DNA of 60,662 bases, filler included, from Platydemus manokwari (lineage: Eukaryota), in the NCBI GenBank assembly GCA_037951405.1. It is 6 parts of 6 records of this genome, joined end to end, with 100 filler letters (N's around TTAATTAATTAA, not from the genome) between each part and the next. Parts side by side here need not be neighbours in the genome. Positions count along the whole stretch, not along the records: positions 32,643 to 42,620 come from JBBMOY011182433.1; 5 more parts are not named here. One strand, written 5' to 3'. The notes under the pieces were generated by a model. It did no database searches and was not told where the DNA came from. It saw only the letters and a program-made list of their open reading frames with translations. Each line of letters starts with the position of its first letter. Position 1 is the first letter of the stretch. The position numbers and the translations under genes are program-made. Shown one piece after another: positions 40,227-42,620 of the stretch.

Positions 40227-42301
40227 CTATAAGTTGACTTCCCATACTCGAGGGTTGACCCTACAATATTTCCTATACAACTTATAGCTTATGTACATCA
40301 CCATTATGGTGGTCAAACTGGAGATTACTGCTCCTATTATCATCAGGTTTAGGGTAATTTCATTCTGGGGTTTCTTGCTACTCATGGAAATCATACTATT
40401 ATTGATTGTTGTTCTTATGATTTTTGTTGTTATTTTACTAATTGGCTTTATCGTTGTTTTTCTTACAAGGGATTCTCGATGAATTATGAATTTAAGGTTG
40501 CTTTTTTCATAATACTAAAAATTTATATTTACAGGATTTTCAATATTAACATTCCGGGTGATGATTCCTTCTGTAGAGTTTATATTATAACGATGTTCAA
40601 TTAAATGTACTCTAACTTTGAAACAATTCAAATCTTCACAAATGATTTTTATTTGGTCTAACAATTTTTCGATAAATATTTTGCGGGGTAATTCAGGGGT
40701 TTGAACTATCATTGTTATTATATCCTTTCCTTTCTTTATTTCTATTTGGTAAATTATTCCACAATTTAAATTATACATATTTATTGGTTCATTAGCGCTT
40801 TCGTGGACTCTATCATCTGATGTTCGCCATTTTCTCTCGACTTTAACTTGAAATTCTTTCTTAAGCTGTGCTGTAAATCATTTTATTTTCCTATCCTTAT
40901 ACTTATTGTTTAATATCATTATTCGTCCATATTTACTGTAGATTTTAAATTCCTCTTTTCCTATGCTATTAAAAGTGAACATCATCATTGGACTGTCACA
41001 AGTTTGATCGCAAGGCAAAACTATCATTGCTGTAACTATAGTTGCCATTCTAGGGATTCTTCTCCTATATATTATTGGAGTTGTAGTATCATTATTCCTC
41101 CTTTTATTTCCATACATTATTATCAACGCTGCCATTATTGCGATAAATGTTATAATTATACTGGTTATTAGTGATGCATTTAAATTCCTAAAGTGTTGTT
41201 CGTATTCTTTAATCATTTTTGTCAACTTTATTCCGTCTTTTATCATTTTATCCCTTTCTATTTTTATTGATTCAAGATCATTTTTCCATTGCATTGCTTT
41301 CCTTTTTATTCTAAGATGTTCTCTTTTTTTCTCTTTTGCTTTCCATTCTGCTACTCTTTGCTTATAGTGTATTATCTCTTTCCACTTCCTGTTTCCTATG
41401 TCACTTTCGTCGTTAATGGTTTTTGTTAATATCCATTTTGGATTTATCAATTTATTCTTACTGGTCGTACAGAATTTAAAACTCTTCACAATTGCATTTC
41501 GATGTGTAAGGGTTTGCATAACACTGCATAAATGTTATATTATGAAGTCCTAATGTCGATAATATGATTGTCTTAGATAGTATGGTGTTGTTTATTTTAA
41601 TTTCTTTTTCTTCATTTATTGCCATTTTTGCTACTGTTCCCATTAATGATATTAGATGACATGTTAACTTTTTAGTGTATGGCTTCCATGATATTCCTAT
41701 TATTTCCTTTTTTGCTTTGGGCGCTTTAAATTTCCACTCATTTTTTTCTGGCTTAATTTCTTTTAGGATTGCTCTTAAATGTCCTACTACTTCTATTGTT
41801 TTTTGTTTACTGCTTATTGACTGTATCATTATATAAAAATTGACTCTCCTTTCTTGGTTTATCAACTCTTCCCATTTCCCTATTATTGTTATATCCTGTA
41901 ATTTTTCTACTTTACATTTTTCACCATATCCTTGGCTACATTTTACTACCAATTCTATTCTATTTGACTCATTCTTAACCTGTATTTGACCTATATCCCT
42001 TAATTTTCTCCAATTACATTGTTGTTGACAACTTATTATTGCTCTATTATTTTCTACTGTTATGATGTATGGCAAAATGAACTCTACTCGTTTCACATAC
42101 TGTTTTTTTACTCTCTTTTGTCATTATTGATGATGGTGTATTTTCAATATTCCCTATTATGGTGGTATTTTCCATTATGATTGGTAATGTGGTTTTGTGG
42201 TTCCTTACTTCACTAATTAGTTCAAAATTATTGGTTTCATTAGCCTTATTAAGACTTTTAACTGGTCTAATCATTAGGCTAATTATTAGAGAAATTATCA
42301 T
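40227..42301 (-). pseudogene. Env-like multi-transmembrane polyprotein, frameshifted (ORFs 42047-42301, 41476-42096, 40878-41519, 40515-40778 and an unlisted tail)
   Basis: In order: signal-like IISLIISLMIRPVKS, a Cys-containing ectodomain with N-x-S/T sites, a coiled coil, TM SIIITFIAIMAALIIMYG, a basic loop, a second signal MATIVTAMIVLPC, a second ectodomain, a Thr-rich stalk, TM LMIIGAVISSLTTIMVMYISY and a short tail. It lies directly after integrase on the same strand. Confidence 0.75.
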
Positions 42302-42620
42302 TATCTCCTATTCTGTTTATTGATTTCATTATACTTCCTTGTTTTATTTCATCTTTTTTGTCATATTGATATTTAAAATGTATTTTTTAGTTTGAGTTGG
42401 TTGTTTTCCTAATGTTTCTTTTCTAGTTATAGGCTGTTCTTCGGCTTTTTTTACATCTATTTACATGTACTACTGACGGATCTTCATTCTTTTTCTTTTT
42501 TATGAACAAGTTTGTATCTGTTACTTTCACTACCTCATAGGGTCCTTTATACTGTTGGAGTTTTGATTCTTTTATTATTTAGATATGTGAGTTCTGTATG
42601 CTACCGGTTGAATCGCAATG

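What the first reader, a model, noticed from the sequence alone, without database searches (positions are those of the whole stretch)
40227..42440. Two type-I membrane proteins in one env-like polyprotein, apparently continuous with integrase
Seen: signal - ectodomain 1 (Cys, glycosylation sequons, long K/E coiled coil) - TM - basic loop - internal signal - ectodomain 2 - Thr-rich stalk - TM - tail. The overlapping ORFs join by single frameshifts, and coding-like sequence runs from the integrase tail to the first signal. Inference: a signalase-cleaved two-glycoprotein layout (Gn/Gc-like topology) rather than errantivirus F-type env. The fusogen class cannot be recognised.
Basis: partly seen in the sequence, partly recalled or inferred. 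Interest (0 to 1): 0.7.

Follow-up and report, generated by a model that had tools for sequence, protein, structure and literature searches.

The report
Two-anchor envelope-like gene in gypsy retrotransposon
A broken copy of a repeated gypsy-type jumping gene in an animal carries, where retroviruses keep their envelope gene, a real membrane-protein gene with two membrane anchors that matched no known envelope family in the searches run, so it may be an undescribed kind of envelope, though fusion activity is not shown.

Summary
The gene is real. On the minus strand, 42300-40230 is crossed with 4 breaks (2 frame changes, 2 in-frame stops) against 33.7 expected (0 of 500 simulations), and related sequence is highly repeated in the one run laid. 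Both transmembrane helices and the K/E coiled coil exceed shuffled controls; each signal-like segment alone, the sequons and the Thr stalk do not. TM1, the basic loop and the second hydrophobic segment lie in one open frame. Continuity with integrase is not supported: the linker is not distinguishable from non-coding DNA (64 of 500), and only 51 residues of integrase tail precede an assembly gap. It is not Gn/Gc: the second ectodomain has about 222 residues and 5 Cys, against 498 and 30 in Atlas Gc. It fits neither F- nor gB-type env. One short homolog was found among 1.84 billion representatives; folds were uninformative. Best reading (0.5): a separate env-position gene for a secretory precursor with two anchored ectodomains serving cell-to-cell spread. 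Signalase cleavage and fusion are inferred only.

The parts
42621..42720 (.). Assembly gap; gag, RT, RNase H, integrase core and 5' LTR are not in view
   Evidence: N runs 42621-42664 and 42677-42720; no whole genome held
42426..42578 (-). Integrase C-terminal tail, 51 aa, GPY/F-like motif (motif name recalled)
   Evidence: Pfam Integrase_p58_C E 6.4e-4, 20.2 bits, below the cut-off of 27
42308..42425 (-). Linker: short open stretches in two frames, a stop at 42346 and an ATG at 42329; most likely end of pol and start of the env-like gene
   Evidence: Translations; break count not different from non-coding; related contigs have loose ends at 42447
42269..42304 (-). Signal-peptide-like hydrophobic core (12 aa) followed by P-V-K-S
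   Evidence: 11-mer hydropathy 2.94; alone within chance, 476 of 3000 shuffles
42050..42307 (-). Open piece B (86 aa): signal and Ser/Thr/Asn-rich start of ectodomain 1; variable in the family
   Evidence: contig depth 201 here against 1403 and 2106 in the neighbouring bins
41479..42120 (-). Open piece C (214 aa): body of ectodomain 1, 8 Cys (3 inside the overlap with the next piece), possible alpha/beta domain at about 41847-41578
41175..41402 (-). Membrane-proximal K/E-rich coiled coil, about 75 aa
   Evidence: 1 of 500 shuffles; pLDDT 77-90 over residues 51-100; one heptad position 82% hydrophobic; 28 of 57 identical to P0002
41115..41171 (-). Transmembrane helix 1
   Evidence: 19-mer 2.81, 12 of 3000 shuffles; 17 of 19 identical to P0002
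41049..41114 (-). Basic loop, 22 aa with 7 K/R, ending in R-R-R-I-P-R
   Evidence: Direct translation
41016..41048 (-). Second short hydrophobic segment (11 aa): internal signal or fusion peptide
   Evidence: 11-mer 2.47, 19-mer 0.99; alone within chance
40347..41015 (-). Ectodomain 2, about 222 aa, 5 Cys, broken by in-frame stops at 40880-40878 and 40517-40515; Ser/Thr-rich stretch at about 40470-40365
40290..40346 (-). Transmembrane helix 2
   Evidence: 19-mer 2.17; two such peaks in 15 of 3000 shuffles
40227..40289 (-). Basic cytoplasmic tail (20 aa, one Cys) and stop codon
   Evidence: Direct translation
39537..40166 (-). 209-aa open frame 60 nt behind the stop; further cargo or a separate Penelope-like piece; no polypurine tract or LTR recognised
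   Evidence: 0 breaks against 9.9 expected; Atlas lead PF26215 at 0.86; depth falls to 190, 60, 45

Best explanation
A decayed copy of a multi-copy Ty3/gypsy-like retroelement whose third gene, most likely separate from pol and with its own start near 42329-42301, encodes a secretory-pathway precursor of about 700 residues. An N-terminal signal puts ectodomain 1 (about 365 aa, 6-10 Cys, ending in a 75-aa coiled-coil stalk) in the lumen; TM1 anchors it; a 22-aa basic loop stays cytosolic; a second signal-like segment re-enters the membrane, probably with cleavage by signal peptidase, to give ectodomain 2 (about 222 aa, short Ser/Thr stalk), TM2 and a tail. The one or two surface proteins would act as the element's envelope or spike for passage between cells, of a type unrelated to F, gB or Gn/Gc. 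SHOWN: coding origin, two TMs, coiled coil, TM1-loop-segment 2 in one frame, repeated family, position behind an integrase-like tail. INFERRED: both signals, topology, cleavage, separate start, any role in attachment or fusion.
For: 4 breaks in 2071 nt against 33.7 (0 of 500). Two TMs and four ordered hydrophobic peaks above shuffles. Basic residues follow both TMs, as the positive-inside rule (established knowledge) wants for N-out/C-in anchors. Contig depth 913-1672 over 40515-42039 against 11-23 over the flank 34110-35939 (not a copy number). In the one homolog, TM1 is better kept (17 of 19) than the coiled coil (28 of 57). One search lists a difference inside the first in-frame stop codon carried by the whole depth there (6 contigs), so that stop looks private to this copy; the only indel it shows inside the gene is 3 nt long (1 of 12 indel rows shown, 69 not shown). 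Env position behind an integrase C-terminal motif on the same A-rich strand.
Against: Each signal alone is within chance, and sequons are not enriched. No clean internal signalase site in this copy. No fusogen family or fold was matched: no Pfam hit above cut-off in 3 of 3 env-region queries or 6 of 6 pieces; no Foldseek match at E 0.001. TM plus coiled coil plus sequons is not specific to env (PMC5408684, passages read). Linkage to the integrase tail is seen in this one copy only, with a dip in depth between them. No LTR was found. Only one copy, one run and one 90-aa homolog were seen.
Confidence: 0.5

Rival explanations
1. Non-fusogenic accessory cargo: one or two captured cell-surface proteins (small alpha/beta domain, mucin-like stalk, TM; SEA-domain-like layout, recalled) or a coiled-coil membrane tether that help adhesion, trafficking or host modulation, without fusion.
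Confidence: 0.2
2. Class I-like env in a foamy-virus-like topology (recalled): TM1 is a type II signal anchor with the N-terminal part cytosolic, R-R-R-I-P-R is a luminal furin site, the following hydrophobic segment is the fusion peptide, and TM2 anchors the fusion subunit.
For: An R-x-x-R motif lies directly before the hydrophobic segment; no good signalase site follows it; a 45%-charged coiled coil would suit the cytosol; rotifer Vesta4 ORF3 combines two TMs, RXXR and a coiled coil without known homology (PMC5408684).
Against: K-R-R directly follows TM1, favouring a cytosolic loop; no coiled coil follows the hydrophobic segment; the first signal-like segment and the Cys pairs of piece C would be unexplained; the loop is only 22 aa.
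Confidence: 0.12
3. One reading: one Pol-Env polyprotein, as in the belpaovirus Atlas, cut into a Gn-like and a Gc-like class II pair.
For: Open stretches in two frames overlap across the linker; the TM and signal order resembles Atlas (PMC9094657); in-frame env is described in planarian Burro elements (PMC6431247).
Against: The linker is not distinguishable from non-coding DNA and has more breaks than the body. Ectodomain 2 has about 222 aa and 5 Cys against 498 aa and 30 Cys for Atlas Gc. A long coiled coil is foreign to Gn (established knowledge). No Pfam or PDB match. Pol-env fusion alone, without Gn/Gc kinship, stays possible at about 0.25.
Confidence: 0.06
4. A mosaic: the membrane gene belongs to another repeat (for example the downstream Penelope-like piece or a large multi-ORF element) and only happens to lie behind an integrase fragment.
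For: Depth differs by block (2106, 201, 913-1672, 415, 190, 60, 45) and relatives diverge at 42447; no listed contig bridges integrase tail and piece C; a further open frame follows without an LTR.
Against: Same strand, same A-rich skew, spacing of about 120 nt typical of a pol-env junction; a variable N-terminal region explains the dip as well.
Confidence: 0.12

Closest known systems
Atlas virus and related nematode belpaoviruses with Gn/Gc-like Env (PMC9094657; passages read)
   Same: Env region behind integrase in an LTR retroelement; two tandem membrane-anchored ectodomains
   Different: Atlas is BEL/Pao with one Gag-Pol-Env frame, Gn-like 421 aa and Gc-like 498 aa with 30 Cys and a class II fold; here gypsy-like tail, about 365 and 222 aa, 5 Cys in the second, a long coiled coil, no detectable homology
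[quoted passage not shown]
   Same: Ty3/gypsy context, env position, signal and TM anchor
   Different: One ectodomain there; F has furin site and fusion peptide inside it. Here two anchored ectodomains with the coiled coil ahead of TM1. That survey started from known env baits and classed ENV as F or gB; its supplements were not read
Vesta4 and Vesta6c TM-type ORF3 of bdelloid rotifer LTR retrotransposons (PMC5408684; passages read)
   Same: Env-position ORF with two hydrophobic segments, RXXR and a coiled coil, no known env homology
   Different: 210-230 aa against about 700; order of parts differs; no sequence comparison was possible
Signal-peptidase-processed two-glycoprotein precursors of bunyaviruses and roniviruses (recalled; PMC8116784 seen as search listing only)
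   Same: Inferred mode of making two type I glycoproteins from one precursor
   Different: RNA viruses; no sequence or fold link found
Burro giant gypsy elements of planarians (PMC6431247; passages read)
   Same: Gypsy elements of an invertebrate with env homology and extra ORFs
   Different: Their env is F-like and lies in frame between gag and pol; here it follows integrase and is not F-like. The host of this window was not identified

Membership tests
Ty3/gypsy LTR retrotransposons (Metaviridae) | Integrase with a GPY/F-type C-terminal module at the end of pol | tested here: inconclusive
   Integrase_p58_C 20.2 bits, E 6.4e-4, cut-off 27, on 51 aa; no PDB match
Ty3/gypsy LTR retrotransposons (Metaviridae) | PR-RT-RH-IN order and RT phylogeny | not testable with these tools
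   Assembly gap at 42621; no genome held
Ty3/gypsy LTR retrotransposons (Metaviridae) | Polypurine tract and 3' LTR behind the last ORF | tested here: inconclusive
   One purine run of 10 or more in 40230-39200, not followed by TG; an open frame follows instead
Ty3/gypsy LTR retrotransposons (Metaviridae) | Dispersed multi-copy family | tested here: met
   Depth of related contigs 913-1672 against 11-23 in the flank, one run
Phenuivirus-like Gn/Gc Env (Atlas type) | Two tandem anchored ectodomains with an internal signal | tested here: inconclusive
   Two TMs above chance; internal signal alone not; SignalP not available
Phenuivirus-like Gn/Gc Env (Atlas type) | C-terminal Gc of about 500 aa with 20-30 Cys | tested here: not met
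   About 222-aa ectodomain with 5 Cys against 498 aa and 30 Cys
Phenuivirus-like Gn/Gc Env (Atlas type) | Class II three-domain beta fold | tested here: inconclusive
   Model pLDDT below 50 over ectodomain 2; no Foldseek match at E 0.001
Phenuivirus-like Gn/Gc Env (Atlas type) | Env in frame with Gag-Pol | tested here: inconclusive
   3 breaks in 329 nt, within the non-coding range
Errantivirus F-type Env | One ectodomain between signal and a single C-terminal TM, holding furin site and fusion peptide | tested here: not met
   A strong TM lies mid-protein, behind the coiled coil and ahead of the only R-x-x-R plus hydrophobic segment noticed; layout of F
Errantivirus F-type Env | Profile or fold match to baculovirus/paramyxovirus F | tested here: inconclusive
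   No such Pfam, PDB or Foldseek row; HHpred not available; models poor
Errantivirus HSV/gB-type Env | One five-domain class III ectodomain (several hundred residues, recalled) with fusion loops | tested here: not met
   Ectodomains of about 365 and 222 aa split by a TM; features

The most novel reading that the evidence does not exclude
A further, independent lineage of envelope in LTR retroelements beside F, gB and Gn/Gc types: a signalase-processed pair of membrane glycoproteins, one on a coiled-coil stalk, that holds a fusogen of an undescribed fold and makes this gypsy family infectious in its animal host.
Probability: 0.2. Interest if true: 0.8.

Novelty: new variant of a known kind. Interest (0 to 1): 0.5.

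Why it matters
The most recent survey of env-bearing gypsy elements in animals reports only F- and gB-type envelopes and grew from known env baits (PMC13524379), so unrelated envelopes could have been missed. A repeated gypsy-like family with a two-anchor env-position gene and almost no homologs in 1.84 billion representatives would add a capture event, and perhaps a fusogen fold, to the history of how retrotransposons became infectious. If it is not a fusogen it is still an undescribed membrane cargo gene. No paper describing this layout in a gypsy element turned up in searches (open-access library only; supplements not read).

Tried and rejected
Homolog searches without result: 0 of 2196 longer and 0 of 2240 similar-length candidates for the TM1-TM2 region; 0 of 116 for piece C; 0 of 49 and 0 of 598 stretches in metagenome contigs; 0 of 2 and 0 of 40 in viral contigs and 0 pattern matches; 0 of 57 in prokaryote genomes. 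Piece B was searched only against Pfam. Piece C was not run against the 1.84-billion library. PDB sequence searches gave only E 0.11 or worse. ESM Atlas for piece C gave only unnamed 41-49-aa clusters at 0.77; ectodomain 2 has no Atlas result. Single-sequence AlphaFold models were poor (34.5 and 41.9), so the Foldseek blanks and the absence of SEA or fusogen rows exclude nothing. Internal duplication of the two ectodomains was rejected. Kinship with the decayed A-rich stretch at 34.1-36.0 kb was not found. No RNA holder was listed, which says nothing on expression. No earlier finding matched by place or sequence. The bacterial promoter scan is not relevant to an animal. The row labelled DHX9 repeated the coordinates of the 209-aa ORF by my mistake and was ignored. 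No complex prediction was run, since a pass for a long coiled coil would not separate the rivals.

Full report
Setting. The window comes from an AT-rich animal genome (GC 20-35% per kb); exons at 25013-26029 match RNA helicase A/DHX9 (E 7e-126). The host was not identified and no whole genome is held. The finding lies on the minus strand of a segment that ends at an assembly gap at 42621. All that is left of pol is a 51-residue piece at 42578-42426 with a weak match to Pfam Integrase_p58_C (20.2 bits, cut-off 27). Its G-P-Y motif is typical of gypsy and retroviral integrase tails (recalled).

Is the gene real? Yes. Three open pieces (86, 214 and 435 codons, the last with two in-frame stops) overlap by 71 and 56 nt. 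The least number of breaks over 42300-40230 is 4, against 33.7 in simulated DNA of the same composition (0 of 500; 0 of 300). The plus strand needs 17 over the finding's span, the minus strand 7. Contigs of the one public run that holds the stretch (possibly the source sample, so not independent) pile up to depth 913-1672 over 40515-42039 against 11-23 over 34110-35939. This is not a copy number, but it shows a large repeated family. One search shows 40 of 795 letter differences and 12 of 81 indels. Among them is a difference inside the first in-frame stop codon, carried by the whole depth there (6 contigs), and a single 3-nt indel inside the gene. Both fit a family with an open gene and a decayed local copy.

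Membrane anatomy. Against 3000 residue shuffles, TM1 (2.81; 12 of 3000), the pair of TMs (15 of 3000) and four hydrophobic 11-mer peaks together (12 of 3000) are above chance, as is the charged helix before TM1 (1 of 500). That helix is the only part that AlphaFold models with confidence. Basic residues follow both TMs. Coiled coil, TM1, the 22-residue basic loop and the second hydrophobic segment lie in one unbroken frame, so the join between the two halves is seen directly in this copy. Against this, each signal-like segment alone is within chance (476 and 1702 of 3000), the 9 sequons are no more than composition gives (747 of 3000), and the Ser/Thr stalk is borderline (58 of 1000). The internal segment is 11 residues, too short for an ordinary TM (19-mer 0.99), and has no clean signalase site behind it by von Heijne's rule (recalled); one search lists two places in this stretch where most related contigs differ from this copy, so this copy may not stand for the family. 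The segment also follows R-R-R-I-P-R, which allows a furin-plus-fusion-peptide reading.

Link to integrase. From 42578 to 42250 three breaks are needed in 329 nt. Non-coding simulations give 5.1 on average and 64 of 500 do as well; at the body's rate three breaks have Poisson P 0.027. A stop at 42346 and ATGs at 42329 and 42301 allow the usual layout, pol ending and env starting about 20-45 nt later, with fewer breaks. Related contigs leave this copy's sequence at 42447 (5 contigs), and depth dips to 201 over 42040-42344. Fusion is therefore unproven and the less likely reading (about 0.25).

Relatives. HMMER over 1,835,955,588 representatives gave 1 hit for the TM1-TM2 region: P0002, 90 aa from a 710-nt ENA contig, E 5.4e-20, 59% identical. 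It keeps 17 of 19 residues of TM1 and 28 of 57 before it. All other searches were blank. No Pfam family passed its cut-off for the env-region pieces.

Comparison. Atlas virus has Gn- and Gc-like parts of 421 and 498 residues, the latter with 30 Cys (PMC9094657, passages); the second ectodomain here has about 222 residues and 5 Cys, so it may be made like a Gn/Gc pair but is not a member. Gypsy envelopes across animals are reported as F or gB type with one ectodomain (PMC13524379, passages and section 14); the mid-protein TM does not fit. Rotifer LTR elements carry short two-TM ORF3s with RXXR and coiled coil and no known homology, and the authors warn that such features do not prove an env (PMC5408684, passages). 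Planarian Burro elements have an F-like env between gag and pol (PMC6431247, passages). PMC9289625 and PMC10175614 were read as passages for context only. Supplements were not read and could list related elements. Two earlier scan notes (unchecked) mention in-frame env in copia elements and a small membrane gene in a gypsy element; they widened the rivals and were not tested.

Verdict. A real, repeated, orphan membrane-protein gene in the env position of a gypsy-like element. Most likely (0.5) a separately started precursor with two anchored ectodomains that serves as an envelope or spike. Rivals: non-fusogenic surface cargo (0.2), furin/fusion-peptide topology (0.12), mosaic of unrelated repeats (0.12), true Pol-Gn/Gc polyprotein (0.06). 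New variant of a known kind; interest 0.5, held down by one broken copy, no pol core, no fold and no expression data.

Noticed in passing
window 39537-40166 (-), continuing to about 39310: A 209-aa open frame 60 nt behind the env-like stop (0 breaks against 9.9 expected; 3 against 15.9 down to 39250). ESM Atlas gave a weak lead to PF26215 HTH_animal (0.86, 103 features shared), a domain I recall from Penelope-like elements; Pfam and PDB gave nothing. A 76-aa frame at 39633-39403 holds a G-P-F motif like a second integrase tail, without a Pfam integrase hit.
   Followed up: partly
window 34100-36000 (-): A-rich, single-copy-depth stretch with a Thr-rich stalk and TM-like piece at 35952-35788 (TMEM154 E 0.0018, below cut-off). 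Break count equals the null; no tblastx link to the focal gene. Possibly a much older decayed element.
   Followed up: partly
window 37592-38277 and 38477-39217: Two direct copies of a repeat of about 700 nt, 73% alike, in a zone of very high contig depth (up to 5511 at 36855-37159); a related piece is inverted at 18339-18444. Not classified.
   Followed up: no
window 25013-29067 (+): Large exons of a host RNA helicase A/DHX9 gene; the 402-aa frame at 27859-29067 ends in a long Asn/Ser-rich region.
   Followed up: partly
window 5630-7162 (-): Open frames that look like hinge and ligand-binding exons of a nuclear receptor (motif recalled; no such Pfam hit).
   Followed up: no
window 13412-13511, 23519-23618, 32543-32642, 42621-42720, 51674-51773: Five identical 100-nt spacers of N with a 12-nt core, mostly beside microsatellites: contig joins, so order across them is uncertain.
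   Followed up: no
window 45748-46206 and 54824-55140; 55803-55941 and 56805-56945: Short dispersed repeats (75-82% alike) and a 140-nt inverted pair 86.5% alike about 860 nt apart, possibly a MITE or DNA transposon remnant.
   Followed up: no
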